Positions 15,243 through 51,269 of a stretch of 51,269 nucleotides of DNA are shown here, piece by piece. Origin of the DNA: a phage; the sequence record PZ445518.1; one strand, given 5' to 3'. Under the pieces are notes generated by a model that ran no database searches, was not told the origin of the DNA, and saw nothing but the letters and a program-made list of their open reading frames with translations. The translations under genes and the position numbers were made by a program. Each line of letters starts with the position of its first letter. Positions within the stretch are counted from its first letter, which is position 1.

Positions 15243-15819
15243 ACTATCCGGTTCCCTGGGGCGTAGATTTGGCGTCTTTCACAAAATGGCGGTTGACTCA
15301 TACCCCGAAGCAATACGCGCGTTATCTTCCCAGGTTGAAGGGTTCAAGGACTACATGCAAAGCGAAGTAGGATCGCGAATGAAGTATGCTGTATTCGTTG
15401 ATGGAAAAAACGTTGGTCAGCATGATGAAAAATCATGGAAGTGCGCGCGAGAGGTTCGAATAGTTCCTGTTCCAACTGGTTCTAAGTCCGGCGGCCTGTT
15501 CAATGTTGTTTTTGGTGCTGTAATTATGGCTACTGCGTTCATTACTGGCGGTGCAAGCCTGGCGGCTATGGGCGCTTTTGCATCTTCCGCATTTATGATG
15601 GGTGGGGCTATCGCGTTGGGCGGTGTAATGCAAATGATCTCACCGCAGCAGGGAGGAATGAAACTGCAAAGCCAATCATCGGAAAACAAGCCTTCTTACG
15701 CTTTCGGCGGTGCTGTAAATACCACGGCGGCAGGTTATCCGGTTCCTTTGCCATATGGATATAGGACAGTAGGCGGCGCAATCTGGTCGGCTGGCAGCTA
15801 CGCAGAAGATAAAGCATAA
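15223..15819 (+). CDS. tail assembly protein (lambda I-like)
   Basis: 198 aa with Gly/Ala-rich hydrophobic C-terminal half; between K-like and J-like genes. Confidence 0.55.
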   Translation: MTLKVIKLSGSLGRRFGVFHKMAVDSYPEAIRALSSQVEGFKDYMQSEVGSRMKYAVFVDGKNVGQHDEKSWKCAREVRIVPVPTGSKSGGLFNVVFGAVIMATAFITGGASLAAMGAFASSAFMMGGAIALGGVMQMISPQQGGMKLQSQSSENKPSYAFGGAVNTTAAGYPVPLPYGYRTVGGAIWSAGSYAEDKA

Positions 15820-15825
15820 AAAAAT

Positions 15826-15848
15826 ACCCGCCTTGCGCGGGTTTTTTT
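15826..15848 (+). terminator. rho-independent terminator
   Basis: ACCCGC cttg CGCGGGT followed by TTTTTTTG. Confidence 0.65.
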
Positions 15849-15897
15849 GTGCATTTATAATGTGCAAACCAAGAAACAGCACAAAAGGTTAAAAGTC

Positions 15898-18800
15898 ATG
15901 GCTAAATATATGATAAGCGGCAGTAAGGGCGGAAGCAAAAAGCCATACGTGCCAAAAGAGATGGAAGATAACCTGATCTCGATAAACAAGATTAAAGTTT
16001 TGCTGGCTGTATCTGATGGCGAGTGCGATCCAGATTTCACGTTGCGCGATCTTTATCTTGATGATGTTCCGGTTATTGCCAGCGATGGCACTGTTAACTA
16101 CGAGGGAGTTACGGCTGAATATCGACCAGGTACGCAGACGCAAGATTACATCCAGGGTTTTACTGACACATCAAGTGAGGTGACAGTTGCAAGAGATATT
16201 ACCGGAGACAATCCTTATGTTATTTCTGTTACAAATAAAAATCTATCTGCGGTAAGAATAAAGATCCTGATGCCAGTAGGCATTAAAACAGAGGATAACG
16301 GCGATCTTGTTGGCGTAAGGGTTGAGTATGCCGTAGATATGGCTGTTGATGGCGGTTCTTATAGCGAGGTTATGAGAGATGTAATTGACGGCAAGACAAG
16401 ATCAGGATACGACCGCAGCAGAAGGATTGATCTTCCTAAGTTTGATGAGCGCGTTTTAATCCGAGTAAAGCGACTGACTCCAGACAGCACATCTTCAAAG
16501 GTGACTGATAAAATCAAGCTGCAAAGTTACGCTGAGGTTGTTGATGCAAAATTCCGCTATCCTCTGACTGGACTTGTATTCGTAGAATTTGACAGCGAAT
16601 TGTTTCCTACGCAAATCCCTAACATTTCTATAAAAAAGAAATGGAAGATTATTAATGTGCCAAGCAACTATGATCCAATATCAAGAGAATATCACGGGTC
16701 ATGGGATGGGACTTTTAAAAAAGCGTGGTCAAATAATCCTGCTTGGGTTCTTTATGATCTGGTGACAAATCAGCGTTATGGACTTGATCAGCGAGAGTTA
16801 GGAATACAGATCGACAAGTGGAGCTTATACGAAGCGGGCGTTTACTGCGATCAGAAAGTTCCAGACGGTAAAGGCGGCACTGAGCCTCGCTACCTATGCG
16901 ATGTGGTGATTCAGAATCAAGTTGAGGCTTATCAGCTAATCCGTGACATTTGCTCAATCTTTCGCGGAATGAGTTTTTGGAATGGTGAGAGCTTATCAAT
17001 CGTGATTGATAAGCCGCGCGATCCATCATACGTGTTTACTAATGAAAACGTCATCAACGGTGATTTTCAGTACACAAACGCAAGCGAAAAAAGCATGTAC
17101 ACGCAGTGTAACGTGACGTTTGACGACGAACAAAACATGTATCAGCAGGACGTAGAGGGGGTTTTTGATACTGAGGCTGCATTACGATTTGGATACAATC
17201 CAACAAGCATTACAGCGATCGGTTGTACACGCAGGAGCGAAGCGAATCGTCGCGGTCGGTGGGTTTTGAAAACAAACCTTAGAAGCACTACTGTAAACTT
17301 TGCTACCGGACTAGAGGGGATGATTCCATCAATAGGTGATGTGATTGCTATCGCTGATAATTTTCAGAGCAGCAACCTAACGTTAAACCTATCGGGCCGA
17401 GTGATGGAAGTTTCAGGATTGCAGGTTTTCGTTCCGTTTAAGGTTGATGCTCGTCCTGGTGATTTTATTATCATCAACAAGCCGGACGGAAAGCCAGTTA
17501 AGCGCACGATCTCAAAGGTTAGCGCAGACGGAAAAACCATTGAGTTAAATATTGGATTTGGTTTTGATGTTAAGCCTGATACTGTTTTTGCGATTGACCG
17601 TACTGACCTTGCGTTGCAGCAATACGTTGTGACAACTATCAGCAAGGGTGATGACGAAAACGAGTTTACCTATTCAATCACTGCTGTAGAGTACGATCCG
17701 AACAAATACGACGAGATTGATTATGGAGTAAACATTGATGACAGACCGACTTCAATTGTTCAGCCTGACGTGATGGCAGCGCCTGAGAACGTTAAGATCT
17801 CATCTTATTCTCGCGTCGTGCAGGGTGTTAGCGTTGAGACTATGGTTGTTTCATGGGATAAGGTTCCTTACGCATCGCTTTATGAAATGCAGTGGCGAAA
17901 AGGTGATGGTAACTGGCTGAATACGCCGCAGACCGCTAACAAAGAGATAGAGGTAGAAGGGATTTACTCTGGCAACTACCAAGTAAGGGTGAGATCCGTT
18001 TCTGCAAGCGGTAACGCTTCCCCGTGGTCAAAGATTGCAACCGCCACTCTGACAGGTAAAGTTGGAGAGCCAGGAGCGCCGATTAATCTTACGGCTTCTG
18101 ATAATGAAGTTTTTGGCATTCGTGTCAAATGGGGTATGCCGGAAGGATCAGGCGATACGGCTTACATTGAGCTTCACCAATCGCCAGACGGAACGGTTGA
18201 AAACTCAAGTCTGCTTACGCTGATTCCATATCCTCAATATGAGTATTGGCATAGCACGTTACCAGCGGGGCAAGTTGTATGGTATAGAATCCGCAGCGTT
18301 GACAGAATAGGCAACGTTTCAAGCTGGACTGACTTTGTTCGCGGCATGGCGTCAGATGACGTTGAATCTGTTTTGGGCGACATTCTGGACAAGATTTTTG
18401 ATACAGAAGCTGGTCAAGAAATCAAAGAGAACGCCATAGACAGTGCCAATAAAATCAAAGACCAGGCGCAATCAATCATACAGAACGCGTTGGCAAATGA
18501 TGCAGATGTGAAGTGGACGCGAGTGCAAAACGGAAAGCGCAAGGCTGAATATGGTCATGCTCTTGAGCTTATCGCCAATGAAACAGAAGCGCGCGTAACT
18601 CAAATCGAAGAATTAAGGGCATCAATTGATGGCGAGATAACATCAAGCATCAAGACAGTGCAGGAGGCAATTGCCACTGAATCAGAGACGCGAGCGACTC
18701 AAATTCAGCAGCTTGATTCTAAATTCACAAAAGAAATCGACGGCGTGCGCAAGGATACTTCTGCAAGCATTAGCGATGTAAGGCAGACAATCACTAACGA

Positions 18801-38174: not shown

Positions 38175-38220
38175 ATTATGCCAGGTTTTTACACCTGGCT
38201 TTTAACAAAAAGTGCTATTT
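38175..38220 (-). promoter_or_regulatory. conserved-element promoter cassette (-10 CATAAT)
   Basis: Minus strand: AAATAGCACTTTTTGTTAAAA, 19 nt hairpin GCCAGGT..ACCTGGC, CATAAT, leader CACCGAAACGAAAGGAG. Confidence 0.55.
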
Positions 38221-38925
38221 TGAGTTTGACTCAAATACGGCGCGAGCAAATCCGCGCGGAGTGAGGGAGCGGATCATCTTTGTGCGTGATGAATTGCCGC
38301 CAGTTTTGGCCCAGCCTGGATTATCTTTGTCTTTCTCTTTCGGCAGGATTAAAGCGCGTGGAGGAATAACAAAGCCGTTGCCAGTCCAGAGGCATGTTTT
38401 CTTAAAGTAGCGATCCCGCGCCGGAATAATATCAGGGAAGTCGGGATGTTTATCATCTTCCGGCAGATAGCCAGCGTAATCGCACGGATGGAACGTATAA
38501 TCAGGCTTACGCCATAACGTTGACAACTTGCCAACCGGATTTTCGATCATGTAAGGAACACCGAAATAATCAGCTATATCAGCCGCGATTCTGCAAGTGT
38601 CGGCGGCCTCATCCTGGAACGATGGATTCTCAAGGCGTTTTTTGGCCCAATGGCGAGATCCGCTATTTGCAAGGTCGGTGCAAGGAGGGAACGCCATAAT
38701 AAAATCAGGATTGCCCCACTCATTATTGATTGCCTTAACATAAAAAGCATCATCAATCCAGACGTTAACGTATTCGATATTCTCATGCTGTATGCGCACT
38801 GACTGGTAATCACCGTGATCGCCGCCGTCAGCATTAAAGCAAATGCACTTATATCCATTATCAGCCCAATCTTTAACGGCTTTACCAGATCCATCAAATA
38901 GGGAGAATATTAAACCTTTATACAT
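38215..38925 (-). CDS. SAM-dependent DNA methyltransferase-like protein (C5-cytosine methyltransferase-type motifs)
   Basis: Ordered motifs FDGSG (motif I-like), FPPC (PC motif), IENPVG (ENV motif); only ~236 aa; stop TAG inside conserved element. Confidence 0.45.
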   Translation of the reverse strand: MYKGLIFSLFDGSGKAVKDWADNGYKCICFNADGGDHGDYQSVRIQHENIEYVNVWIDDAFYVKAINNEWGNPDFIMAFPPCTDLANSGSRHWAKKRLENPSFQDEAADTCRIAADIADYFGVPYMIENPVGKLSTLWRKPDYTFHPCDYAGYLPEDDKHPDFPDIIPARDRYFKKTCLWTGNGFVIPPRALILPKEKDKDNPGWAKTGGNSSRTKMIRSLTPRGFARAVFESNSK

Positions 38926-41444: not shown

Positions 41445-41979
41445 CGGTTAGCACCAGGATTGTGATCGAAATAATCAAAAGTAATCATTCGTAATCAAAT
41501 CACGTCAAAATGATGATTGCATTTGCAAATTTGATGAGAAAAGTAATCACGTTTAATCATTGGTTGCAGGGGAGATAGTGAAACCTTCCCCTCTTGCCTC
41601 ACTTTCCCGCCTGGCTGTCAGTGGTTGTTATGTTCCGTTCCCGCCTGTTCTTTTGTTGACCTTCCGCAAAATACGATAACAAAAAATAACAAACAATACC
41701 TATATAATACATTGAAAAATAAGGATTATTTATTTATATGTATCTATATATTATCTTTTGTTATCTTGGTTATTGTGGTATTTGGTGGGGGTATATAGTT
41801 TTTGTGTATCTATATGTGTGTATGGGTATGTAGGGGCATATATATCTATATGGCACTTTCCGCGAGAAAACTTCGATAACAGCCAATGATAACATTGATT
41901 TATAAGGAAAAATAACGCCAATATTGTTATTGTGCCACCATATAAAATTGATAAAACACGCGGGAACAAGAAAAAACAG
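41445..41979. promoter_or_regulatory. AT-rich divergent control region B (candidate operator/origin region)
   Basis: About 535 bp without ORFs; GTAATCA x3, palindrome ATTTGCAAAT, TTCCCGCCTG x2, TATGT/GTATCTATAT word repeats, GGGAACAAGAAAAA box. Confidence 0.5.
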
Positions 41980-42008
41980 TTGACACATTAAATAGCATTA
42001 TTGATAAT
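41980..42008 (+). promoter_or_regulatory. sigma70-type promoter for rightward early operon
   Basis: TTGACA, 17-nt spacer, GATAAT; about 30 nt upstream of ATG 42038. Confidence 0.6.
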
Positions 42009-42037
42009 GCCGACACCTAACAACCAGGAGGTAGAAA

Positions 42038-42502
42038 ATGAGCGAGCAATCATTAACTGACACGCTGCGCCGTGCAGCTATTATGCTGGCTAATGGCGAG
42101 GAAGAGGCGATCAAGATTCCTGACGCGTATTTGCAGGTCCACATGTTCGGCAAGAAGTCGGCAAGCAATCCGGCGGCCTACATTCGCCAGATCATGAGTC
42201 GAGTTCCAGAAGTCGCCGAGCGGGGGCGCGTATCCGTTACCCGTGGAGTTTACGGGCCGGAAGATGAAAACTTCGGTAGCACTTTCTACGAGGTGCGCAT
42301 TGTTGAAGGACGTCGCAAGGTTTACAACAAAGAGGCACTGGAAAGGGCAGTACGCCAGGCTAAGCGCAAGGTTGCAGAGGCGATCATTGATATGTCACCA
42401 AACCTAGCAAACTATGCGCCGGAAGAGTATGAAACATTATCAAAGGCCGTCGCTGACTTTCACGCGATGATCAAAAAAACTTTCCTGGAGGATGAGCAAT
42501 GA
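42038..42502 (+). CDS. hypothetical protein (first rightward early gene)
   Basis: AGGAGG RBS; downstream of TTGACA-N17-GATAAT promoter. Confidence 0.5.
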   Translation: MSEQSLTDTLRRAAIMLANGEEEAIKIPDAYLQVHMFGKKSASNPAAYIRQIMSRVPEVAERGRVSVTRGVYGPEDENFGSTFYEVRIVEGRRKVYNKEALERAVRQAKRKVAEAIIDMSPNLANYAPEEYETLSKAVADFHAMIKKTFLEDEQ

Positions 42503-42771
42503 AAAAGGCGTTAATCGGTGTTTTGGTGGCAATGGCATTCCTGACCGGATGTAAAGAAGATGGCGCGCATGTTGGCAATGTGCAGATGGCTAACCCTGGC
42601 GATGACTACAACGTAAGGGAGCTATTCACCGCTGACGGATGCACTGTTTACCGATTCTATGACGATCGCACTGTTTACTTCACCAACTGCAAGGGAACTA
42701 CTAGCTGGGAAGTGTCGAAAAGCAATGGCAAAGGCACGAAGACAGAACATATGACCGTCGAGACAAAATAG
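42499..42771 (+). CDS. lipoprotein (second putative exclusion-type lipoprotein)
   Basis: Signal peptide with lipobox LTGC (MKKALIGVLVAMAFLTGC); stop TAG inside conserved element. Confidence 0.6.
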   Translation: MKKALIGVLVAMAFLTGCKEDGAHVGNVQMANPGDDYNVRELFTADGCTVYRFYDDRTVYFTNCKGTTSWEVSKSNGKGTKTEHMTVETK

Positions 42772-42811
42772 CACTTTTTGTTAAAACTCAAAAACGATAA
42801 CCAGGCATAAT
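42766..42811 (+). promoter_or_regulatory. conserved-element promoter cassette (-10 CATAAT) driving structured leader
   Basis: AAATAGCACTTTTTGTTAAAAC (contains stop TAG of lipoprotein gene), 19 nt, CATAAT. Confidence 0.55.
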
Positions 42812-43013
42812 ACACACATAGACGGGCGGCAAGGATTGCTGCGGGAGAGGAGCGACGCAGGGGCTTGATCGAAGTGTCAGGATTCCCAACCGTGAGGCCA
42901 GAACTATCACACTCGCCACCAGGCAGAACGCTAGATAGGTCACTGAACTGAGGCTACCGACGAAGTGAAGCCCGTCACCAAAGATTAAACGGTTATTTAT
43001 GTGAAAGGGGTTA
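42812..43013 (+). ncRNA. GC-rich structured leader / candidate small RNA
   Basis: About 200 nt without convincing ORF; downstream of promoter cassette; 7-bp closing stem GACGGGC (42821-42827) with GCCCGTC (42970-42976). Confidence 0.3.
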
Positions 43014-43196
43014 ATGATGGATAAGATCATCAAAATGAGCGAAGTCAAGCCGGGAATGATGGTTAAATTTGCTGGCAAATATCGCCTAGTGCTGGATAAC
43101 TGCCGCAAAGAGAACATTCTTACAATTCGTGTAAATGGCAAGGCGCAGCTATTCGCCCCTAACGCAGATATTGACGTTGAAGTTAGAATTAAGTAA
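43014..43196 (+). CDS. hypothetical protein
   Basis: 60-aa ORF after long structured leader; RBS AAAGGGG. Confidence 0.45.
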   Translation: MMDKIIKMSEVKPGMMVKFAGKYRLVLDNCRKENILTIRVNGKAQLFAPNADIDVEVRIK

Positions 43197-43211
43197 TTAG
43201 GAGAAATCACC

Positions 43212-44336
43212 ATGTTAAAACTTGCTGACATTAAATTCCCGATCACCTTCGAATCTCGCGGCATTGGTCATTACATTTTTACTGATGAAAAAACATGCCA
43301 TAAGGTTAATATGAATAGCGACAAACTAAGCCCATCAACAATGGAGATTGAACACTTTATTGATGCGCACAATACGCAGTACAACGCACTTAAAGACTAT
43401 GGCTATGCAATGCCAGGCTACACATGTTTGCACTACAAGCCATATAAAGGCCAGGTGTTGCCAGTAAAAGAGAACAAGCAATTCCTGCTGGATAGCGAGG
43501 AGATTGTATACCCGATCACCTTTGAAACGGCAGGAAATAGCGTTGTGACTTTCACATCTCGCGACAACGGCACATATGGAAACGGCTTGAGAACAAGTTA
43601 TAATGTTGATTACTTCGTCGCCTGTCATAACATGGCTAATCCTAACAACGATAAGAACAAGGTGTACTACGTGCGCGATATTGAAAGGCAGTGGCCTAAG
43701 AAAGACTCCCAGGCAGAGATTCCGATGGTTCATATGAAAACCTGCGACTACAAAAAGCTGTGGTGCTTAAGTCTGGACAATATCAAGTATCCGATCACGT
43801 TCCGCACGACTGGTAAGTCAACGATTCGCTACACATCGCGCGAAAATGGCGTTTATAGCGATGGTACGAAATCAGGGTTGAAAGTTGATTTCTTTGTCAA
43901 CGGTCACAATAGATACAATCCGCACAACGAAGAGGATAAAGTGTACTACGTGGAAGACATTACAAAACACTTATTTGGAGAAACTCCATTCGGCGGCGGT
44001 AAGACGTCAATTCAAAAAATCATTGGCGATGAGATCCACAAAGCGGCTGCCGAAATGAAAGCTCCTGGAGGCTGGCGTATTGACAAGAGCGCATTTGCAA
44101 ATCAAGAAATCGTAACGCAGGGCGCAATTGAAGATATGCCAGTTGCAGCCACTCTAAAAGGAGTCCGGCTTGATGACGGCACCTGGTATGAAGTAACGGC
44201 TACACCAAAGACGATCGAGATTCATGATGACGTTGTTATCCTTCTGCTTCACTACGGCGGCTATAAAAACCGGACGATTGCAGGTGAGATCAGCATTAAG
44301 CGCGGAACGATGATTAAGTGGAAGGTGAAGATTTGA
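43212..44336 (+). CDS. protein with three tandem ~95-aa repeats (unknown function)
   Basis: Repeat units begin IKFPITFESRG / IVYPITFETAG / IKYPITFRTTG and each ends with a ..DKVYYV(R/E)DI-type block. Confidence 0.6.
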   Translation: MLKLADIKFPITFESRGIGHYIFTDEKTCHKVNMNSDKLSPSTMEIEHFIDAHNTQYNALKDYGYAMPGYTCLHYKPYKGQVLPVKENKQFLLDSEEIVYPITFETAGNSVVTFTSRDNGTYGNGLRTSYNVDYFVACHNMANPNNDKNKVYYVRDIERQWPKKDSQAEIPMVHMKTCDYKKLWCLSLDNIKYPITFRTTGKSTIRYTSRENGVYSDGTKSGLKVDFFVNGHNRYNPHNEEDKVYYVEDITKHLFGETPFGGGKTSIQKIIGDEIHKAAAEMKAPGGWRIDKSAFANQEIVTQGAIEDMPVAATLKGVRLDDGTWYEVTATPKTIEIHDDVVILLLHYGGYKNRTIAGEISIKRGTMIKWKVKI

Positions 44337-44412
44337 GTTTGCTCACTGCGGCGCACGTCGCCGCATGGATCGGATTGTTTTCCTACCTGTTTAGCTTTTA
44401 TTGAGGTGAGAG

Positions 44413-44565
44413 ATGGCTACCTGGATTTTGCTGATTCTTATGATTGATGGCGGCGTTGACCATATCGAAATGAATAGCCAGCAATCTTGCATTGAGGCAC
44501 GAGAGCAGATCAAGAACAACAACAGTTTTTATGCGTACACTCACACGCTATGTATTAAGAAATAG
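44413..44565 (+). CDS. small hydrophobic Cys-containing protein (50 aa)
   Basis: RBS GAGGTGAGAG; stop TAG inside conserved element; paralog of 45854..46015; below ORF-track cutoff. Confidence 0.35.
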   Translation: MATWILLILMIDGGVDHIEMNSQQSCIEAREQIKNNNSFYAYTHTLCIKK

Positions 44566-44604
44566 CACTTTTTGTTAAAACTCAAATGTGGGGCCAGGTA
44601 TAAT
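44560..44604 (+). promoter_or_regulatory. conserved-element promoter cassette (-10 TATAAT)
   Basis: AAATAGCACTTTTTGTTAAAAC, 18 nt, TATAAT flanked by GGCC..GGCC. Confidence 0.6.
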
Positions 44605-44634
44605 GGCCTCACTTTCAACGAAGGAGATAAAACG

Positions 44635-44856
44635 ATGTACATTAAAAATAAGATGAAATGCGTTTCCGTTAACTATGCTTGCTCTGGCATGTTCAAGCCT
44701 GGCGAAATCTATACGGCGCAAAAACTGAAAACATCAACCGGATCTTTTTACGTGAGCAATAGTAAGGGGTATCGCATGTTCCTGAACGGCGGCGAAGGCA
44801 CTAAGGTTATGGCACACGCTATGGTAATGGCTGAATTTGAGGAAGTGAAACAATGA
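44635..44856 (+). CDS. hypothetical protein (tandem paralog of next gene)
   Basis: ATG after AAGGAGA; shares PGE-IY / YxxFLNGxxGT / AEFEEV blocks with 44853..45098. Confidence 0.5.
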   Translation: MYIKNKMKCVSVNYACSGMFKPGEIYTAQKLKTSTGSFYVSNSKGYRMFLNGGEGTKVMAHAMVMAEFEEVKQ

Positions 44857-45098
44857 TCATTGAAAACAATTTTCTTTGCGTTAAGAGCAATAGACCATTC
44901 TTCACACCTGGCAAGGTGTACCAGGGCAAGAAGGACACAAGAGATGGTCACTCTTATCATGTTCACTGCAACAACGGATACAAGTTTTACCTTAACGGCG
45001 AGAATGGAACTGAGATTGTTGCGTTTGAAAACGTAGTTGCCGAGTTCGAGCAGATTACAGACGCGGAATTTGAGGAAGTGAAAGATGAAAACAAATAA
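44853..45098 (+). CDS. hypothetical protein (tandem paralog)
   Basis: ATG overlaps upstream stop (ATGA); paralogous blocks as above. Confidence 0.5.
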   Translation: MIIENNFLCVKSNRPFFTPGKVYQGKKDTRDGHSYHVHCNNGYKFYLNGENGTEIVAFENVVAEFEQITDAEFEEVKDENK

Positions 45099-45306
45099 GC
45101 GCGTCAAGCACAGGTTTACTGATAACCACGGCGACGCGATTGATGTATACAAGTTCGGCGATCGCGTGTTTATTGATGGCACGTTTGAAGGTGGTCGTAG
45201 GCCGGATTTTAGGTCGATACTTACCGTTGACCAAGTGCGCAAGCTGGCAGATAAGTTAAATGATCTGGCAGATGAAATAGAATACAAGCAAATCCATTTT
45301 AATTGA
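45085..45306 (+). CDS. hypothetical protein
   Basis: 73-aa ORF overlapping upstream gene by 14 nt. Confidence 0.45.
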   Translation: MKTNKRVKHRFTDNHGDAIDVYKFGDRVFIDGTFEGGRRPDFRSILTVDQVRKLADKLNDLADEIEYKQIHFN

Positions 45307-45317
45307 TAGGTTTTATA

Positions 45318-45857
45318 ATGAAAAAATACACTTTCGAACTATGGGGCAAGAAGTACGAATTAATCACCAGCAAGCCGATTGTTATCGTTGACCTGGACGG
45401 CACACTATCGGACGGATCGCATCGTTTGCATTTGCTGCCAACTGAAAGCTTGCACCTTACGGAATCGTGGCGCGAGTTTAACAGGGCCGCAGCAGGAGAT
45501 TCACCGATTAAAAGCACGATCGCGATTGTTAACGGTTTGTGGGTGTCGGGATTTGCCATCGTCATCTTGACCGGACGCAGCGACGAGGTGCGCTATGAAA
45601 CCTGCAAATGGTTGAATGAGAGCGGCGTGAAGTTTGACGAAATCATCATGCGCCGCCAGGAGGACAACCGAAAGGATACGGTTATTAAAGAAGAAGCCTT
45701 GCGCGCTATTGGCCTGGACAATATTGTTTGCGCCTTTGACGATTCGCCGAACGTTGTTAAGCACTTCCGCAGCCTGGGAATCACAACCTATCAGGTCACG
45801 GAATACGACAAGCCACACGCTCACCTGCAATCTCACGGCGTGGAGTGTTTAAAATGA
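45318..45857 (+). CDS. HAD-superfamily phosphatase / nucleotidase
   Basis: HAD motif I DLDGT (IVIVDLDGTLSD), motif II ILTGRS, downstream K and DD residues. Confidence 0.65.
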   Translation: MKKYTFELWGKKYELITSKPIVIVDLDGTLSDGSHRLHLLPTESLHLTESWREFNRAAAGDSPIKSTIAIVNGLWVSGFAIVILTGRSDEVRYETCKWLNESGVKFDEIIMRRQEDNRKDTVIKEEALRAIGLDNIVCAFDDSPNVVKHFRSLGITTYQVTEYDKPHAHLQSHGVECLK

Positions 45858-46015
45858 CTTGGTTGCTTTTAATCTTTGTCACAAGTTACAACTCCGCAGC
45901 TATTGAGTCGCAGGAGTTCCACGGCGAATCAAGATGCCAGGAAGCGCGAAAGCAAGTTATTCTCCACATGTCAGATAGTGGGAAGGATGTAACAGCGTTA
46001 TGCGTTCGTAAATAG
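45854..46015 (+). CDS. small hydrophobic Cys-containing protein (53 aa)
   Basis: ATG overlaps upstream stop (ATGA); stop TAG inside conserved element; paralog of 44413..44565. Confidence 0.35.
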   Translation: MTWLLLIFVTSYNSAAIESQEFHGESRCQEARKQVILHMSDSGKDVTALCVRK

Positions 46016-46056
46016 CACTTTTTGCAAAAAACAGATCATCGGGCTTGCTGTATAGT
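46010..46056 (+). promoter_or_regulatory. conserved-element promoter cassette (-10 TATAGT in hairpin loop)
   Basis: AAATAGCACTTTTTGCAAAAAAC, stem GGGCTT..AAGCCC enclosing TATAGT, leader CATCAACAACAAACGAGGA. Confidence 0.5.
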
Positions 46057-46087
46057 AAGCCCATCAACAACAAACGAGGATTAAATC

Positions 46088-46351
46088 ATGGCTAACAAGA
46101 TCGAGTTTTTTAAAGCTGTAGACATTATCGACGGCGCGCCTAGCTTCTTTGCTATCCATTCTATTGACGGCAAGGATATTGGGTACAACGTTATCCGTCG
46201 AGATGGAATCTCAAAAATTAGTGACCTGGTAGGCCATATTGTGTCAAACGGGAAATGCGCATGGCCCGATTCGCCACGAGAGCCACGCCGCCGCGACATG
46301 GTAGAGCCTGTTCTGCTTTACACTCTGGTAGTAGAGGGAGAAAATAAATGA
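46088..46351 (+). CDS. hypothetical protein
   Basis: ATG after GAGGA, downstream of promoter cassette. Confidence 0.5.
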   Translation: MANKIEFFKAVDIIDGAPSFFAIHSIDGKDIGYNVIRRDGISKISDLVGHIVSNGKCAWPDSPREPRRRDMVEPVLLYTLVVEGENK

Positions 46352-46533
46352 TTTGGTTACTTGCTTTTTTGGTTGCTTTTCTCTACATTTCAGGCTTATT
46401 TACGTTCCGCGCTTTTGTGAAATATTCTGGCACGACAGACAAGGACGATAAAATCGTTCTCGCTTTCTGGTTTGTTTGGGTGTGGTTAGCAATTTACGAG
46501 ATCATTAGAGACAAACAGAAATTTGAGTGGTGA
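46348..46533 (+). CDS. small membrane protein (two predicted TM helices)
   Basis: Two hydrophobic stretches; start overlaps upstream stop. Confidence 0.45.
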   Translation: MIWLLAFLVAFLYISGLFTFRAFVKYSGTTDKDDKIVLAFWFVWVWLAIYEIIRDKQKFEW

Positions 46534-46592
46534 TTCTTGCTATGGCGCATTCATGCAGTGCGCCATGTTGAGAAAACCTAAAGGGGGAGACG

Positions 46593-46742
46593 ATGCGTAA
46601 CTTTGAAAAAATCATTACCAAAAAGAAGCGTCGCGGGTACGATGAGCATGTGGAGCTTGTGAAAAAGCAACGCAAGAAGCGCAACGAAGACAAGAAGCGC
46701 GGGAAAAAAATTAATGCGATTTTTCGCTATGGAGATCATTAA
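46593..46742 (+). CDS. small highly basic protein (49 aa)
   Basis: ATG after AAAGGGGGAGA; Lys/Arg-rich; stop 2 nt before kinase ATG; below ORF-track cutoff. Confidence 0.3.
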   Translation: MRNFEKIITKKKRRGYDEHVELVKKQRKKRNEDKKRGKKINAIFRYGDH

Positions 46743-46744
46743 TC

Positions 46745-47335
46745 ATGAAACGAGACATTATCATCCTTAATGGGCCGCCAGGTTGCGGGAAGGACACTAT
46801 TGCAGCTTACCTAACGGGCCATCGTTACCCAGCGGTTAATGCGTCATTCAAACAGCCGATGTTCGATATTGCGTTTTCCATGCTTGGCACGACTCGATAT
46901 GATGAGTTTATTGACCTGTACAACGACCGAGAGCAAAAAGAAAAGCCTCAAGTTATCTTAGGCGGCAAGTCACCTCGACAATTCATGATCTGGATTAGCG
47001 AGGATGTAATGAAGCCAGTCTTTGGGGAGCAGTATTTCGGGCGTCGAATGGTTGAAGAGATTAACGAGATGTACCGAGATTTGGCGGTTGTGATCAGTGA
47101 TGGCGGATTCCACGAAGAAATCAAGCCGCTTGTTAAGGCAGGGCATGAAGTGCATATTTGCCGATTGCATCGCGACGGCTTCACGTTTGCTGGCGATTCG
47201 AGAGACTACATTGACCTGAGCGGTTATCACTATCGAATCCATCACTATGACTTCCACTTGCAGGACGGCAAGCCGGAACTGGCTGTAAACGAGATCGTCA
47301 ATGCTGTCAAATGGAAGCACACACAGATTAAATAG
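46745..47335 (+). CDS. deoxynucleoside monophosphate kinase-like P-loop kinase
   Basis: P-loop GPPGCGKDT and several collinear blocks resembling T4 gp1 dNMP kinase (recalled, not searched); stop TAG inside conserved element. Confidence 0.6.
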   Translation: MKRDIIILNGPPGCGKDTIAAYLTGHRYPAVNASFKQPMFDIAFSMLGTTRYDEFIDLYNDREQKEKPQVILGGKSPRQFMIWISEDVMKPVFGEQYFGRRMVEEINEMYRDLAVVISDGGFHEEIKPLVKAGHEVHICRLHRDGFTFAGDSRDYIDLSGYHYRIHHYDFHLQDGKPELAVNEIVNAVKWKHTQIK

Positions 47336-47375
47336 CACGAATTGCTAAACGCGGGGCGCAATGCCTCGCTATAAT
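47330..47375 (+). promoter_or_regulatory. conserved-element promoter cassette (variant element; -10 TATAAT)
   Basis: AAATAGCACGAATTGCTAAAC, 19 nt, TATAAT. Confidence 0.55.
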
Positions 47376-47405
47376 GCAAACACCAATCAACGAGAGGAAA
47401 CAATC

Positions 47406-47807
47406 ATGGTGGAGTTAAACGACATTCGCGTTGGAACAAAATTTCGCGTAACCTGGGCAGATAAATATTGTGGCGTTAGCAAGGGCCAGGTTGTTGCGGT
47501 GGATAGTATTTATCGTGGTGTTAGTGGTGACTTTCGCCGTCCGCGCATCAATAATGGCTATATCATTACTCGCCGTATTGGCTTTGATAATTATTGCGTA
47601 GTGGCGACTCAAGGAGTTTTGATTGAGCTTAAGAGAATCAGCGATCATCGCGGTCGTCATGTTAAGGCAATGAAAACACCATTTCAGCGAGCGAGATACG
47701 ATGCGCGACGTATGCGCCGACTTGCGCGAAATGCGATCAAGTTCAAAAAGCCTGGCGATGATTTTTACGGCATGTATAAGGGGATTGCGCGCAATGCTGG
47801 GAAATAA
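47406..47807 (+). CDS. hypothetical protein (basic)
   Basis: ATG 47406 after GAGAGGAAA, downstream of TATAAT of promoter cassette. Confidence 0.5.
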   Translation: MVELNDIRVGTKFRVTWADKYCGVSKGQVVAVDSIYRGVSGDFRRPRINNGYIITRRIGFDNYCVVATQGVLIELKRISDHRGRHVKAMKTPFQRARYDARRMRRLARNAIKFKKPGDDFYGMYKGIARNAGK

Positions 47808-47906
47808 CAATAACGCAACGAATCCTAAGACACCTTTTGATTTTCATTCCGCAATGATTGCGGTATTATCAATGCTACTTTTTCTTTATAGCATGAGGGC
47901 GCTACT

Positions 47907-48155
47907 ATGGTTTTTAACGCATTGAAACGACTGTTTAAGCCGGAATACCGGATCGTATTTTGCCGCGACTGTTCTACTTATCATGTGCAGCGACGCAGCT
48001 TAGGCGGCAATTGGCACTATGTTACAGACGACTTTTTCGGCATCATTGCCACTGAATTTAAGTATTACAGCGATGCTTATATGTACGTCAAGAAGCGCCA
48101 CCGCTTACGCAAGTGTCGTTTTTCCGTGCTGATTCACGTTAATGATTGTTACTGA
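47907..48155 (+). CDS. hypothetical protein (Cys-containing)
   Basis: 82-aa ORF. Confidence 0.4.
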   Translation: MVFNALKRLFKPEYRIVFCRDCSTYHVQRRSLGGNWHYVTDDFFGIIATEFKYYSDAYMYVKKRHRLRKCRFSVLIHVNDCY

Positions 48156-48162
48156 GGTGAAA

Positions 48163-48345
48163 ATGAAAACTGGTATTATTATTCTTTTCCTGATTCTTTT
48201 CGGCAGTCATTTAACCATTAACTATGAGGGCATTATGGCCTTTTGGGGCAACTTGATGATGTTTGCCGCTGGTTCAATTGCTGGCTACTCTGACGGGAAA
48301 AAGGATGGTGTGCGCAAGATGCTGATGGGGCTTAAACAAAAATAA
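48163..48345 (+). CDS. small membrane protein
   Basis: ATG 48163 after GAGGTGA; two hydrophobic segments. Confidence 0.4.
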   Translation: MKTGIIILFLILFGSHLTINYEGIMAFWGNLMMFAAGSIAGYSDGKKDGVRKMLMGLKQK

Positions 48346-48356
48346 GGGGATATGAA

Positions 48357-48647
48357 ATGGCAAACAAAACTTACCGCAAACTACTGGTTAACGCTTTTGA
48401 AAACATCGCGCAGTGTAACAAGTGGAACGACTCTAAACACTCGCCAATCACAATGAAGCGCGCCGGATTCAAAAATACTCGTTCATGGGCGCGAGCTTTC
48501 GCAGCTTGCTATATGCCGGATGGCGGACTAGGGGTGATGAACGATTTTTTGATCAACATGATAGAGGAAGCGGCGCGAGAGGATCGACCGCTGACACAGC
48601 GAGATTTTGACGGCTTCGCGCGCGATGAGCTTTACTATCTGAGTTAA
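48357..48647 (+). CDS. hypothetical protein
   Basis: 96-aa ORF; stop TAA immediately followed by TAG of conserved element. Confidence 0.5.
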   Translation: MANKTYRKLLVNAFENIAQCNKWNDSKHSPITMKRAGFKNTRSWARAFAACYMPDGGLGVMNDFLINMIEEAAREDRPLTQRDFDGFARDELYYLS

Positions 48648-48690
48648 TAGCACTTTTTGTTAAAACTTCCGCAAGGGCATTTGGTAAAGT
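48645..48690 (+). promoter_or_regulatory. conserved-element promoter cassette (-10 TAAAGT in hairpin loop)
   Basis: TAATAGCACTTTTTGTTAAAAC, stem AAGGGCA..TGCCCTT enclosing TAAAGT. Confidence 0.45.
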
Positions 48691-48722
48691 GCCCTTATTG
48701 AAGCGAAACAGAGGAAAGCGCA

Positions 48723-48935
48723 ATGAAAATCAAAATCACCAAAATCGACACTATCAACGGCGACGGATCAATCACTCTTGAGCAATGTGGCTTGGTTGTT
48801 GGTGATGTGCTGGAAGTTGACGGACATTTCAGCGACGGATCTTATTGTGTTATTGCGCCGCGCAACAGCGAGTTTATCAAGGCTGGCGACAATATTAGTG
48901 TTAACCATGACGAATGCGAGGTAGTAGAAGAATGA
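48723..48935 (+). CDS. hypothetical protein
   Basis: 70-aa ORF downstream of promoter cassette. Confidence 0.45.
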   Translation: MKIKITKIDTINGDGSITLEQCGLVVGDVLEVDGHFSDGSYCVIAPRNSEFIKAGDNISVNHDECEVVEE

Positions 48936-49165
48936 TCACGATTAACCTTTCAGAGAAGCAAGCATATCAAGTGATGCGCTACATTTCTGGCTTTGGTATG
49001 GAAGGCGCTATGGGTGAAGTTGCGGATCAGATTTGCCGTCAACTTACACCAGCACCAACGCGAGCGGCAGAAACTGCCGCATGGCGCAACGAGGCTGGAT
49101 ACATCCAGAAAGCTATTGAAGACTGGAAGCGCATAAACGAGACTATGGAGGAATCAGGTTTATGA
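48932..49165 (+). CDS. hypothetical protein
   Basis: ATG overlaps upstream stop (ATGA). Confidence 0.45.
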   Translation: MITINLSEKQAYQVMRYISGFGMEGAMGEVADQICRQLTPAPTRAAETAAWRNEAGYIQKAIEDWKRINETMEESGL

Positions 49166-49476
49166 TTTATATTCACTACTACCAAATCGGAACTAACGAG
49201 AACAAGAAAGAGCATCGTTTCATCCATGATGATTTGGACAAGGCAAAGGCACAGCAACAGGTTTTAGGCGGTGTCATTCAGGCTTTTGAGCCTGTAGAAG
49301 ATATTGAGTACCGCGAGCATTTAAAAGATGTTGTTATTGATGAGATCTCTTGCTTGATTGATGATATGACAAATCACGGCCCTGGTTCACCGTGGGAAGA
49401 TGCAGGATCTGTAACGTGGGATAAGGCCAAAGTTAAGACGCTAAACAACTTTCGAGAGATTCTCGACGGTTTTTAA
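49162..49476 (+). CDS. hypothetical protein
   Basis: 104-aa ORF, start overlaps upstream stop. Confidence 0.5.
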   Translation: MIYIHYYQIGTNENKKEHRFIHDDLDKAKAQQQVLGGVIQAFEPVEDIEYREHLKDVVIDEISCLIDDMTNHGPGSPWEDAGSVTWDKAKVKTLNNFREILDGF

Positions 49477-49537
49477 TTAAAAACGCATAGCCGTTAGAGC
49501 GCCTAAATCGCATTCTAACGAGCTATTTTTCTGGTAA

Positions 49538-49675
49538 GGTGATTTAATGGATGAGTACAAACAACCCTCGCAATGGTGCAAAGAGAAGCAGGAGGAAGCA
49601 CTTGAGCGCGGAGATGTAGAAGAAGCTATGAACTATTTCAAACTTGCGGAAGAATGGAAGGGGAGAGGATACTGA
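49538..49675 (+). CDS. small acidic protein (45 aa)
   Basis: ATG 49538; stop TGA overlaps ATG of next ORF; below ORF-track cutoff. Confidence 0.3.
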   Translation, partial: GDLMDEYKQPSQWCKEKQEEALERGDVEEAMNYFKLAEEWKGRGY

Positions 49676-49905
49676 TGTTCGGCATGAACGAGGCGCAATT
49701 CAACGCAGCTAAACGCCAGGCTAAAAAGTGCGGCGAGGCAATGAAAGCGGATGTGGAAAAGCGCGGGAAGTATGTTGATGAAGTAATGAAGGGAATCATT
49801 GCAGAACACTACCAGCCAATCGCGCCAATGTTGACGATCACTCAATTCATTTGGCTATGTGGTTACTTGCGCGGACGTTGGGGGAACGCTTTCGACAGGG
49901 AATGA
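49675..49905 (+). CDS. hypothetical protein
   Basis: Internal ATG of ORF 49654..49905 coupled to upstream stop. Confidence 0.45.
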   Translation: MFGMNEAQFNAAKRQAKKCGEAMKADVEKRGKYVDEVMKGIIAEHYQPIAPMLTITQFIWLCGYLRGRWGNAFDRE

Positions 49906-49934
49906 TTGACAACTCTTTCCTGATTGGTTAGCAT
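49906..49934 (+). promoter_or_regulatory. sigma70-type promoter
   Basis: TTGACA, 17-nt spacer, TAGCAT, directly after stop of 49675..49905. Confidence 0.45.
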
Positions 49935-50067
49935 GGCGTCGTTTACATAAGAGCGGCTTTGTCCGAACGCGTGACGCGATAGTCACACAACAACGGCGAT
50001 ATGCAGGAGGTTTTTGCAATGCAAAATAATCCGTAAGACGTATCGCCTTTTTTAATGGAGATCCAAA

Positions 50068-50301
50068 ATGATTAAATACAAATTAACCGTTTCTTTCCGT
50101 GATACCGTTATTCATCCTTTCTACAATAGCTTTGTTAACAGCTTTACAGTAGAAGCGACAAGTGATCAGCTTGACGGTGACGAAACTTGCATTTCTATCG
50201 GCAATGTTGCTTATCCGATTCACAACATTACCAGCATTAAGCGTGAGGTTGTCGCTGATGAATTACAAAGTGAAGATGACGATCCGGCGAATGGGGCGTA
50301 A
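50068..50301 (+). CDS. hypothetical protein (acidic C-terminus)
   Basis: 77-aa ORF after GGAG, downstream of promoter 49906-49934. Confidence 0.45.
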   Translation: MIKYKLTVSFRDTVIHPFYNSFVNSFTVEATSDQLDGDETCISIGNVAYPIHNITSIKREVVADELQSEDDDPANGA

Positions 50302-50439
50302 CTGCCAATCATGCAAACAGGAATATGAATGCGTAGTCGATGCTCTTGATGAACTGGAAGCAGTAGCAAAAGCAAAAGAGCAATCGGGCGCTAATCCTGA
50401 AACACATCAATTTTCAATTAATCTTGTGAGGGCTTTACA

Positions 50440-50664
50440 ATGATCGCATTATCTTTCTGCATTGGTTTTATCATGGCTATCATTATCTTTTCCGTTGTCA
50501 TGCGCTTTGCTTATAAGTTCGTGATTAATAAAGGTTGGTACGCTTCTGCCATCTGGAGCGAAAAACAAAAGAAATGGCTTGTACGTGGTCAATACCTGAT
50601 GATCGGCAGCAAGATCCTAAATTCCATTCGAGCCAAAGATGGAAAAGTAAAATATACAGCTTAA
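50440..50664 (+). CDS. small membrane protein
   Basis: N-terminal hydrophobic helix; followed by strong terminator. Confidence 0.45.
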   Translation: MIALSFCIGFIMAIIIFSVVMRFAYKFVINKGWYASAIWSEKQKKWLVRGQYLMIGSKILNSIRAKDGKVKYTA

Positions 50665-50692
50665 AAATTACCCGCCGCACGGCGGGTTTTTT
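50663..50692 (+). terminator. rho-independent terminator before terS
   Basis: ACCCGCCG cac GGCGGGT followed by TTTTTTATT. Confidence 0.7.
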
Positions 50693-50705
50693 ATTGCCAG
50701 TTGTT

Positions 50706-50714
50706 TGGTATAAT
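50706..50714 (+). promoter_or_regulatory. extended -10 promoter for terS-terL
   Basis: TGgTATAAT between terminator 50663-50692 and terS RBS. Confidence 0.45.
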
Positions 50715-50742
50715 CAGGCATCTAACCAAAGGAGGATTAACA

Positions 50743-51269
50743 ATGGCTAAAAACGTTGAGCCTGCTGTAAAGGCATTAAATTTCAAAGAGTTATATAATA
50801 AAACTTATGGCGATATTGTCACGCTAAACAACCGCCACAAGTACACGCCGGAACAGGTTTTTGATATGGCGATCCGCTATTTCACTTGGGCAGAAGAGAA
50901 TCACATCCAGGCGGCTGAAACTGCTTCCTTTCAGGGTGACGTGTACGAGAGCAGAGTTTACAAGCCTCGCGTTTTCACGGTTAACGGATTCAGCTTGTAT
51001 CTCGGCGTGACTGAGGCTGCCGTAAGCAAATGGCGTAAAGAGCCTGGATTCTGCGATGTGATGGAGTTTGTTGATAAAGTAATTTACGAGCAAAAATTCC
51101 AGCTTGCGGCAAATAACATGATTAATGCTGGATTTATCGGTAAAGAGATCGGCGTAGAGAAGCCAGCAACAGTGAGCGTTGAAGCTAGCGCGGCAGCTAA
51201 TGCAAGCATTGACGCAGTAACTGCCGATGAGGTGAAAGAGGCTGTTATTGATATTCTGGAGCAACTTTA
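50743..51269 (+). CDS. terS: terminase small subunit (runs to window edge; stop completed by base 1)
   Basis: RBS AAAGGAGG; HTH-like TVNGFSLYLGVTEAAVSKWRK; directly upstream of terL across the window junction. Confidence 0.7.
   Translation, partial: MAKNVEPAVKALNFKELYNKTYGDIVTLNNRHKYTPEQVFDMAIRYFTWAEENHIQAAETASFQGDVYESRVYKPRVFTVNGFSLYLGVTEAAVSKWRKEPGFCDVMEFVDKVIYEQKFQLAANNMINAGFIGKEIGVEKPATVSVEASAAANASIDAVTADEVKEAVIDILEQL

What the first reader, a model, noticed from the sequence alone, without database searches (positions are those of the whole stretch)
45318..47335. Nucleotide-metabolism pair: HAD phosphatase and T4 gp1-like dNMP kinase, possible link to DNA modification
45318..45857 carries HAD motifs (DLDGT, ILTGRS) and 46745..47335 carries a GKD P-loop with several collinear blocks resembling T4 gp1 deoxynucleoside monophosphate kinase (recalled alignment, not searched). 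Phage-encoded dNMP kinases often accompany non-canonical nucleotide pools, which is notable given the extra methyltransferase-like gene. An alternative reading is a split polynucleotide kinase-phosphatase for RNA/DNA end repair.
Basis: partly seen in the sequence, partly recalled or inferred. Interest (0 to 1): 0.4.

Follow-up and report, generated by a model that had tools for sequence, protein, structure and literature searches.

The report
T1-type phage phosphatase and dNMP-kinase pair
Two early genes of the T1-like phage JK16, a stand-alone PNKP-type 3'-phosphatase and a T4-gp1-like nucleotide kinase, are real and already annotated; they form a conserved linked pair that most likely feeds recycled host nucleotides into phage DNA synthesis, and nothing ties them to unusual DNA bases.

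Summary
The window is Shigella phage JK16 (Drexlerviridae). RefSeq already names 45318-45857 'polynucleotide kinase' (really only its HAD phosphatase half) and 46745-47335 'dNMP kinase'.

The HAD protein matches Pfam HAD_PNKP. Its model superposes best on Pnkp1 and T4 Pnkp, and it keeps every catalytic residue of the T4 phosphatase. The kinase fails T4's narrow Pfam family DNMK. It does share PHROG 139 with T4 gp1, aligns with gp1 end to end by profile, and has gp1 (1DEK) as its best structural match. T4 Pnkp's kinase domain matches only at the P-loop.

The DNA-modification idea finds no support. The pair occurs throughout T1-like phages, most of which are very restriction-sensitive. The window has no base-modifying nucleotide enzymes. 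Characterised relatives phosphorylate canonical dNMPs.

New here: the two genes are tightly coupled. All 80 HAD-selected loci have the kinase downstream on the same strand, and 68 of 80 kinase-selected loci have the HAD upstream. Three natural HAD-kinase fusion proteins exist. In some phages another phosphoesterase takes the HAD's place.

Best reading: a host-nucleotide salvage module, untested biochemically. A split end-healing enzyme remains a live rival (about 0.25).

The parts
45318..45857 (+). Stand-alone PNKP-type HAD (DxDxT) 3'-phosphatase, 179 aa (JK16 gp38)
46745..47335 (+). T4-gp1-like P-loop (GKD) nucleotide kinase, 196 aa (JK16 gp42)
45854..46533 (+). Three small ORFs (45854-46015, 46088-46351, 46348-46533) inserted between the two genes in this lineage; not part of the conserved pair
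   Evidence: PHROGs of unknown function: phrog_5579, phrog_25318, phrog_9755. In more distant phages the HAD and kinase are only 3-21 bp apart. In T1 an HNH endonuclease gene fills the gap.
46593..46742 (+). 49-aa very basic ORF abutting the kinase start, unannotated in RefSeq
   Evidence: ORF list. Conserved immediately upstream of the kinase in 13 of 80 related loci. Function unknown; possibly co-translated with the kinase.

Best explanation
The two genes are the T1-family early 'phosphatase then kinase' module.

Shown:
- gp38 is a stand-alone homologue of the 3'-phosphatase half of T4 polynucleotide kinase-phosphatase and has a complete DxDxT catalytic set.
- gp42 is a divergent member of the T4-gp1 / T5-Dnk dNMP-kinase fold family.
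- The two genes are inherited together, in one orientation, often a few bases apart, and are occasionally fused.

Inferred: T1-like phages degrade the host chromosome and re-use its nucleotides, and they rely on the host replisome. In that setting the kinase phosphorylates 5'-dNMPs released from host DNA to dNDPs, and host Ndk then makes dNTPs. The phosphatase removes 3'-phosphates from DNA ends, oligonucleotides, 3'-dNMPs or pdNp. Breakdown products then become exonuclease substrates or ordinary 5'-dNMPs that the kinase can use.

The module therefore boosts the canonical dNTP supply. It does not signal modified bases.
For: Identity of the parts: as listed under 'parts'.

NMP-site residues of gp1 (Table 2 of PMC10653934) and their counterparts in the 121-sequence family:
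- K14/D15/T16 correspond to K16/D17/T18.
- R68 corresponds to R62 (110/121).
- R132 corresponds to R78 (121/121).
- M135 corresponds to M/L81.
- W152 corresponds to F98.
- D175 corresponds to D119 (120/121).
- E181 corresponds to E125 (121/121).
- R197 corresponds to R143.
- D204 corresponds to D151 (121/121).
- At window residue 41, just after strand 2, where I recall T4 Pnkp's general base Asp35, no acidic residue is conserved (28 E, 25 D, 16 K, 9 Q of 121).

Coupling:
- 68/80 kinase-selected loci have the HAD upstream on the same strand.
- 80/80 HAD-selected loci have the kinase downstream on the same strand, gap 6-2171 bp.
- Three fusion proteins with the HAD at the N-terminus and the kinase at the C-terminus exist: P0258, P0387, P0265.

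Nucleotide-metabolism context of more distant homologues (34-38% identity, same signature motifs):
- Vequintavirus naam: kinase, then an NT5C-type HAD deoxyribonucleotidase (PF06941, 27.3 bits against a cut-off of 24.8), then thymidylate synthase and a ribonucleotide reductase.
- Chaseviridae SA91KD: DNA ligase, kinase, dUTPase.
- Autographiviridae KF2: MazG, exonuclease, endonuclease VII, kinase.

Literature:
- T1 and TLS degrade the host genome and re-use the nucleotides; TLS Gp09 and Gp14 are annotated PNK and dNMP kinase (PMC11447400).
Against: - No member of this subfamily has been assayed.
- Two gp1 residues that bind the dNMP phosphate are not kept: K37 corresponds to F40 and R177 to G121. 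Invariant K36 and R153 lie nearby and might substitute.
- The NMP-binding domain is about 36 residues shorter than in gp1.
- T4's own Pfam family DNMK is not matched.
- A 3'-phosphatase and a 5'-dNMP kinase are not obviously consecutive steps of one pathway. Tight coupling of a phosphoesterase with a kinase is the hallmark of end-healing enzymes.
- Some phages that lack the HAD have a calcineurin-like phosphoesterase, the kinase and an ATP-dependent DNA ligase in a row.
- E. coli already has Tmk, Gmk, Cmk and Adk, so the benefit would be quantitative only.
Confidence: 0.55

Rival explanations
1. Split, re-invented polynucleotide kinase-phosphatase. The HAD removes 3'- or 2',3'-cyclic phosphates and the gp1-like kinase phosphorylates 5'-OH ends of broken DNA or RNA. 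The host ligase (LigA), or a phage ligase in other lineages, can then reseal breaks made by host nucleases or defence systems.
For: - The HAD is specifically PNKP-type and has all catalytic residues.
- It never occurs without the kinase in 80/80 loci.
- Three natural fusions have the phosphatase at the N-terminus and the kinase at the C-terminus. From my own recall, that is the domain order of mammalian PNKP.
- Where the HAD is missing, a calcineurin-like phosphoesterase (PF00149, phrog_221) sits in its place and an ATP-dependent DNA ligase follows the kinase, in L027, L034-L039 and L081.
- In SA91KD a DNA ligase gene directly precedes the kinase.
- Known Pnkp enzymes pair a 5' kinase with non-homologous phosphoesterases: HAD in T4, calcineurin-type in Clostridium thermocellum (my own knowledge).
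Against: - The kinase resembles gp1, not Pnk. Against T4 Pnkp it aligns only over the 29-column P-loop region, while against gp1 it aligns over 180 columns.
- Residues that hold the nucleotide base and phosphate in gp1 are invariant in this family.
- No conserved carboxylate occupies the position of the general base of 5'-OH kinases.
- No ligase is annotated in the window.
- Other homologues sit beside ThyA, RNR, dUTPase and an NT5C nucleotidase.
- The metallophosphoesterase could be a nuclease rather than a phosphatase; it has no informative PDB relative.
Confidence: 0.25
2. One reading: the kinase exists to phosphorylate a non-canonical dNMP, as T4 gp1 does for hm-dCMP, so the pair signals hypermodified virion DNA, possibly together with the extra methyltransferase.
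For: - T4 gp1's physiological role is hm-dCMP phosphorylation (annotation note).
- The close relative FritzSarasin (Bas04; kinase 94% identical) is unusually resistant to restriction-modification systems, and this is unexplained (PMC8594841).
Against: - The pair is present across Drexlerviridae, including T1, and in 1466 phage records. Most Drexlerviridae are highly sensitive to restriction, and no genomic feature correlates with resistance (PMC8594841).
- No hydroxymethylase or thymidylate-synthase homologue, dCTPase, dUTPase, glucosyltransferase or deazaguanine gene is annotated in the genome.
- The two methyltransferases are a Dam (PF05869) and a phrog_757 DNA methyltransferase.
- T5 Dnk and PP_1964 act on canonical dNMPs (PMC10653934).
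Confidence: 0.04
3. Pool-balancing or counter-defence pair. The kinase and phosphatase act antagonistically on mononucleotides, as a substrate cycle like cellular dNK/5'-nucleotidase pairs. They would reshape dNTP pools or offset host nucleotide-depleting defences, rather than serve bulk salvage.
For: - In Vequintavirus the kinase homologue is adjacent to an NT5C-family 5'(3')-deoxyribonucleotidase.
- The window HAD also has weaker similarity to class B acid phosphatases (PF03767, E 1.5e-9) and to phrog_420, the family of that NT5C-like protein.
- T4 Pnkp's phosphatase hydrolyses the mononucleotide 3'-TMP (PMC3592404).
Against: - The best matches by far are polynucleotide phosphatases, not nucleotidases.
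- The literature searched gave no evidence linking this family to nucleotide-depletion defences.
Confidence: 0.12

Closest known systems
T4 gp1 deoxynucleoside monophosphate kinase (PDB 1DEK/1DEL; Pfam PF21448 DNMK; phrog_139), with T5 Dnk and P. putida PP_1964 in the same dNMPK sub-tree (PMC10653934)
   Same: - Same PHROG over the same profile span.
- GKD-type P-loop.
- Counterparts of gp1 R68, R132, M135, W152, D175, E181, R197 and D204 are conserved.
   Different: - Only 14-17% identity in the structural alignments.
- Does not reach Pfam DNMK.
- About 36 residues are missing from the NMP-binding domain.
- gp1 K37 and R177 are not conserved.
- It has its own invariant signature: SFK..., SPR, SE..KP.FG, DGGF..E, DSR.Y.
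- It is paired with a phosphatase, which T4 gp1 is not.
- Substrate untested.
3'-phosphatase domain of T4 polynucleotide kinase-phosphatase (PseT, residues 148-301; PDB 1LTQ, 5UJ0) and Capnocytophaga Pnkp1 (4XRP)
   Same: - Pfam HAD_PNKP.
- Every catalytic and essential residue is conserved at matching spacing.
   Different: - Stand-alone 179-aa protein with no Pnk-type kinase domain.
- It has an extra N-terminal beta-hairpin (aa 1-17).
- It has a longer, highly conserved cap segment (aa 30-66, LLPTE.L.LTESW.EFN) that is modelled with low confidence.
- No RNA ligase partner in the genome.
Mammalian PNKP and Clostridium thermocellum Pnkp (end-healing enzymes built from a phosphoesterase plus a P-loop kinase; my own knowledge)
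   Same: - The rare fusion proteins P0258, P0387 and P0265 have phosphatase-then-kinase order, as in mammalian PNKP.
- The phosphoesterase-kinase-ligase gene order in HAD-less phages recalls the kinase, metallophosphoesterase and ligase domains of CthPnkp.
   Different: - The kinase here belongs to the gp1 (NMP-kinase) branch, not the Pnk branch.
- No end-healing activity has been shown.

Membership tests
T4 gp1 / dNMP kinase family | Match to the curated family model (Pfam PF21448 DNMK) above its gathering score | tested here: not met
   PF21448 is not among the hits at E<=1 for the window protein. T4 gp1 scores 357.9 bits against it. NCBIfam also gives no hit.
T4 gp1 / dNMP kinase family | Remote homology to gp1 over the whole length (shared PHROG, profile alignment) | tested here: met
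   phrog_139: E 1.9e-50 for the window protein and 1.8e-65 for gp1, over the same profile span. hhalign of the 121-sequence family against gp1: 96.3%, E 1.2e-9, 180 columns. A narrow 27-sequence profile gave only 85.7% over 75 columns and did not find 1DEK by HMMER.
T4 gp1 / dNMP kinase family | gp1 fold: P-loop core plus helical NMP-binding domain and lid | tested here: met
T4 gp1 / dNMP kinase family | Conservation of the gp1 ATP- and dNMP-binding residues (Table 2 of PMC10653934) | tested here: inconclusive
   Kept: K14, D15, T16, R68, R132, M135, W152 (as F), D175, E181, R197, D204. Not kept: R11, S12, K37 (F40), R177 (G121), H206.
T4 gp1 / dNMP kinase family | ATP-dependent phosphorylation of dNMPs to dNDPs | not testable with these tools
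   Needs an enzyme assay. None was found in the literature for this subfamily.
PNKP-type HAD 3'-phosphatase | Match to Pfam PF25109 HAD_PNKP above its gathering score | tested here: met
   76.3 bits against a cut-off of 27.6, E 3.4e-21, covering 138 of 143 profile positions.
PNKP-type HAD 3'-phosphatase | DxDxT nucleophile and acid-base, the motif II Ser/Thr, the motif III Lys and the motif IV Asp that binds Mg (T4 D165, D167, S211, K258, D278; PMC3592404) | tested here: met
   D25, D27, T85, K124, D142. All are invariant or at least 90% conserved in 22 homologues.
PNKP-type HAD 3'-phosphatase | Fold closest to solved Pnkp phosphatase domains | tested here: met
PNKP-type HAD 3'-phosphatase | Hydrolysis of 3'-phosphate from polynucleotide ends | not testable with these tools
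   Needs an enzyme assay.
Bifunctional polynucleotide kinase-phosphatase (T4 Pnkp type) | Pnk-type 5'-OH kinase domain: P-loop GxxGxGKS plus the general base Asp35 and Arg38 (residue roles from my own recall) | tested here: not met
   The HAD ORF has no kinase domain. The neighbouring kinase aligns with T4 Pnkp only over 29 P-loop columns. 1ltq is absent from the top 50-60 structural matches. No conserved acidic residue lies after strand 2.
Bifunctional polynucleotide kinase-phosphatase (T4 Pnkp type) | Kinase and phosphatase functionally linked (fused or co-inherited) | tested here: met
   Conserved HAD-then-kinase synteny in 68/80 and 80/80 loci, and three fusion proteins.
Nucleotide-level DNA hypermodification pathway | Presence of a base-modifying nucleotide enzyme (dCMP or dUMP hydroxymethylase, deazaguanine synthesis genes and the like) together with the kinase | tested here: not met
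   None is annotated in the 84 CDS of JK16. Only Dam (PF05869) and a phrog_757 methyltransferase were found. Small hypothetical ORFs were not all profiled.

The most novel reading that the evidence does not exclude
The gp1-like kinase and its obligate PNKP-type phosphatase partner, fused in a few phages, could constitute a previously unrecognised class of nucleic-acid end-healing enzyme. In it, an NMP-kinase-branch (gp1-like) domain rather than a Pnk-branch domain would phosphorylate 5'-OH polynucleotide ends. It would be widespread in T1-like and other enterobacterial phages (more than 1400 genomes) and would repair breaks inflicted by host nucleases or defence systems.
Probability: 0.2. Interest if true: 0.6.

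Novelty: already known. Interest (0 to 1): 0.27.

Why it matters
As the finding was stated, it matters little. Both genes are already annotated in this very genome and discussed for T1, TLS and KanT1, and the hinted link to exotic DNA chemistry is not supported.

The follow-up does sharpen two points:
- The gene called 'polynucleotide kinase' across hundreds of T1-like genomes is only a 3'-phosphatase.
- That phosphatase is coupled, evidently as a unit, to a gp1-like kinase whose substrate nobody has tested.

The pair sits in a phage family that recycles host DNA by unknown enzymes. A simple pair of enzyme assays would either pin down part of that salvage route or reveal a new kind of end-healing enzyme. 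Either result would correct the annotation of more than 1400 phage genomes.

Tried and rejected
- Sequence searches against the PDB with the single kinase sequence and with a narrow 27-sequence profile did not detect T4 gp1; only P-loop matches to AAA+ ATPases appeared. Homology showed only with PHROGs, a broader profile and structure.
- NCBIfam gave nothing useful for either protein.
- The promoter and terminator scan of 41500-51269 was at chance level. It found no strong terminator between the two genes. The strongest promoter-like site is at 41980 and a strong terminator lies at 50670-50687, which is compatible with one early transcription unit but proves nothing.
- I tried to fetch Pseudomonas phage M6 to test relatedness to 5-hmdU DNA kinases. 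The accession I recalled was wrong and returned phage TLS, so that comparison was not done.
- The metallophosphoesterase that replaces the HAD in some phages has no informative PDB relative and is not detectably related to the Drexlerviridae 'DNA repair exonuclease'. Whether it is a phosphatase or a nuclease is open.
- Literature searches linking dNMP kinases or the T1 'pnk' to anti-defence functions found nothing relevant. The retron Eco2 paper mentions PNK only as a reagent.
- A single-sequence locus search with the Era103 HAD returned only 4 loci.
Full report
**Source and observation**

The window is a rotated copy of Shigella phage JK16 (NC_049814.1 / MK962751.1; Drexlerviridae, Tempevirinae, Warwickvirus). 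It is 100% identical over three blocks.

The two ORFs named in the finding are real and sit at exactly the stated coordinates. They correspond to RefSeq gp38, annotated 'polynucleotide kinase' with a note 'HAD superfamily IIIB', and gp42, annotated 'deoxynucleoside monophosphate kinase'.

**The phosphatase (45318-45857)**

Pfam's best family is HAD_PNKP (PF25109, E 3.4e-21, 76 bits against a cut-off of 27.6). The PHROG is phrog_415 (E 1e-64).

- A 22-sequence profile finds only three PDB sequences. All are polynucleotide kinase-phosphatases: Pnkp1 4xrp, and T4 Pnkp 5uj0 and 1ltq.
- According to PMC3592404, the T4 phosphatase uses Asp165 as nucleophile, Asp167 as acid-base, Ser211 and Lys258 to hold the phosphate, and Asp278 for Mg. 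These correspond to D25, D27, T85, K124 and D142.
- R176, R213, D254 and D277 correspond to R36, R87, D120 and D141, with identical D-to-R spacing in motif I. All are invariant or nearly so in the family.

There is no kinase domain in this ORF. The common annotation 'polynucleotide kinase' is therefore a misnomer: this is a stand-alone PNKP-type 3'-phosphatase.

**The kinase (46745-47335)**

No Pfam family reaches its threshold, and T4's own family DNMK (PF21448) is not matched. Simple PDB sequence searches see only P-loops. Four lines of evidence nevertheless place it with T4 gp1:

- T4 gp1 and the window protein hit the same PHROG (phrog_139) over the same profile span.
- A 121-sequence family profile aligns globally with gp1 at 96.3% probability (E 1.2e-9, 180 columns). 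One insertion of about 36 residues lies in gp1's NMP-binding domain.
- The same profile aligns with T4 Pnkp only over 29 P-loop columns. 1ltq does not appear among the best structural matches.

I mapped the gp1 substrate-site residues tabulated in PMC10653934 onto the family. The P-loop K/D/T, R68, R132, M135, W152, D175, E181, R197 and D204 have conserved counterparts. K37 and R177 do not: they fall on F40 and G121. The family has its own invariant K36 and R153.

Membership in the narrow T4 family is not met, and the substrate is inferred.

**Coupling of the two genes**

This is the main addition to what was known.

- Among 80 IMG/VR loci selected by the kinase, 68 have the HAD upstream on the same strand. 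In the more distant ones the gap is only 3-21 bp.
- Among 80 loci selected by the HAD, all 80 have the kinase downstream on the same strand, with gaps of 6-2171 bp.
- In JK16 three small ORFs and a basic 49-aa ORF lie between the two genes. In T1 an HNH endonuclease gene does.
- A full-database profile search found two proteins that fuse an N-terminal HAD_PNKP to a C-terminal kinase of this family: P0258 (403 aa) and P0265 (461 aa). A further search added P0387. The linkers are conserved.
- The P0258 phage contig also carries the 'DNA repair exonuclease' (phrog_704) right after the fusion.
- Fusions are rare: three clusters in all.
- The sampled loci are mostly related siphoviruses, so part of the synteny is shared ancestry.

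**Context elsewhere**

Kinase homologues with the same signature motifs sit among DNA and nucleotide-metabolism genes in unrelated phages:

- Vequintavirus naam: the kinase is followed by an NT5C-family HAD deoxyribonucleotidase, thymidylate synthase and a ribonucleotide reductase.
- Chaseviridae SA91KD: DNA ligase, kinase, dUTPase.
- Autographiviridae KF2: MazG, exonuclease, endonuclease VII, kinase.
- Klebsiella-phage-like contigs that lack the HAD (L027, L034-L039, L081): a calcineurin-like metallophosphoesterase (phrog_221) precedes the kinase, and an ATP-dependent DNA ligase follows it.

The kinase thus recurrently sits beside a phosphoesterase, from three different families.

**Interpretation**

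T1 and TLS degrade the host chromosome and re-use its nucleotides, and the responsible genes are unknown (PMC11447400). T1-like phages encode no DNA polymerase, according to the same paper.

PMC10653934 places T5 Dnk and P. putida PP_1964 in the same dNMPK sub-tree as T4 gp1. T5 Dnk phosphorylates all four canonical dNMPs, and PP_1964 supplies the cellular TMP kinase function. [quoted passage not shown]

The best-supported reading (confidence 0.55) is a salvage module. The kinase converts 5'-dNMPs from host DNA to dNDPs. The phosphatase clears 3'-phosphates from ends, oligonucleotides, 3'-dNMPs or pdNp.

The main rival (0.25) is that the pair is a functional polynucleotide kinase-phosphatase built with a gp1-like kinase. 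In its favour are the obligate coupling, the fusions and the phosphoesterase-kinase-ligase cassettes. Against it are the gp1-like nucleotide pocket, the lack of a conserved general base, and the ThyA/RNR/dUTPase neighbourhoods.

**The DNA-modification hint is not supported (about 0.04)**

- The window encodes only an ordinary Dam and one further DNA methyltransferase.
- No base-modifying nucleotide enzyme is annotated.

One loose end remains. FritzSarasin, a close relative, is unusually restriction-resistant for unknown reasons (PMC8594841). The pair cannot explain this, because sensitive relatives carry it too.

**Verdict**

The finding is real but ordinary and already annotated. Interest is low to moderate, and it rests on the newly documented coupling and on the untested substrate of a kinase present in more than 1400 phage genomes.

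Noticed in passing
window 41636-42222 (JK16 record 14867-16038): The GenBank/RefSeq JK16 record carries a perfect tandem duplication of about 586 bp that the window has only once. This accounts for the length difference of 51854 versus 51269 bp. It may be an untrimmed assembly overlap or a terminal repeat.
   Followed up: partly
window 45857 (end of the HAD ORF); proteins P0121, P0122, P0128, P0150, P0154: Close relatives (92-96% identical) encode longer HAD proteins. Forms of 236-237 aa have an extra C-terminal small domain of about 57 aa. Forms of 206 and 264 aa have a Cys-rich CxxxxC...CxxC insert. In the window the HAD stops at 179 aa and an unrelated small ORF (45854-46015) follows.
   Followed up: partly
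window 46593-46742 (+): A 49-aa, extremely basic ORF ends 2 bp before the kinase start codon. It is not annotated in RefSeq, but it is conserved at the same place in 13 of 80 related loci.
   Followed up: partly
window 44635-44856 and 44853-45098 (+): Two adjacent small ORFs just upstream of the HAD gene are paralogues (36.6% identity, E 3e-15). Function unknown.
   Followed up: partly
window 43212-44336 (+): A 374-aa protein of unknown function (phrog_7116) matches its PHROG in three stretches. The repeats show a recurring 'ITF.T.G...Y.S...G.Y' pattern.
   Followed up: no
L027 980-3579; also L034-L039 and L081: In Klebsiella-phage-like contigs that lack the HAD, the kinase is flanked by a calcineurin-like metallophosphoesterase (phrog_221) upstream and an ATP-dependent DNA ligase downstream. 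A 5'-3' exonuclease and endonuclease VII lie before them. This looks like a possible heal-and-seal cassette.
   Followed up: partly
L089 3498-4699 (Escherichia phage naam): In Vequintavirus the kinase homologue overlaps the start of an NT5C-family HAD 5'(3')-deoxyribonucleotidase (phrog_420). Thymidylate synthase and a ribonucleotide reductase follow. This is a second, different HAD partner for the same kinase family.
   Followed up: partly
L065 9962-10609: In one relative the kinase is split into two ORFs, apparently a frameshift or pseudogene, and no HAD is found within 10 kb. This may be joint decay of the pair.
   Followed up: no
phage records MG065687.1 (A136), MG065662.1 (A142) and about 20-39 others: Records labelled 'Campylobacter phage' (host C. 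jejuni) match this enterobacterial T1-like region, 20 of them at DNA level and A136 at 78.6% protein identity for the kinase. They are probably contaminants or mislabelled deposits.
   Followed up: no
window 38215-38925 (-): The second 'DNA methyltransferase' (phrog_757) has no Pfam or NCBIfam match. It occupies the position where TLS has a gene annotated dcm. The close relative FritzSarasin is unusually restriction-resistant (PMC8594841).
   Followed up: partly
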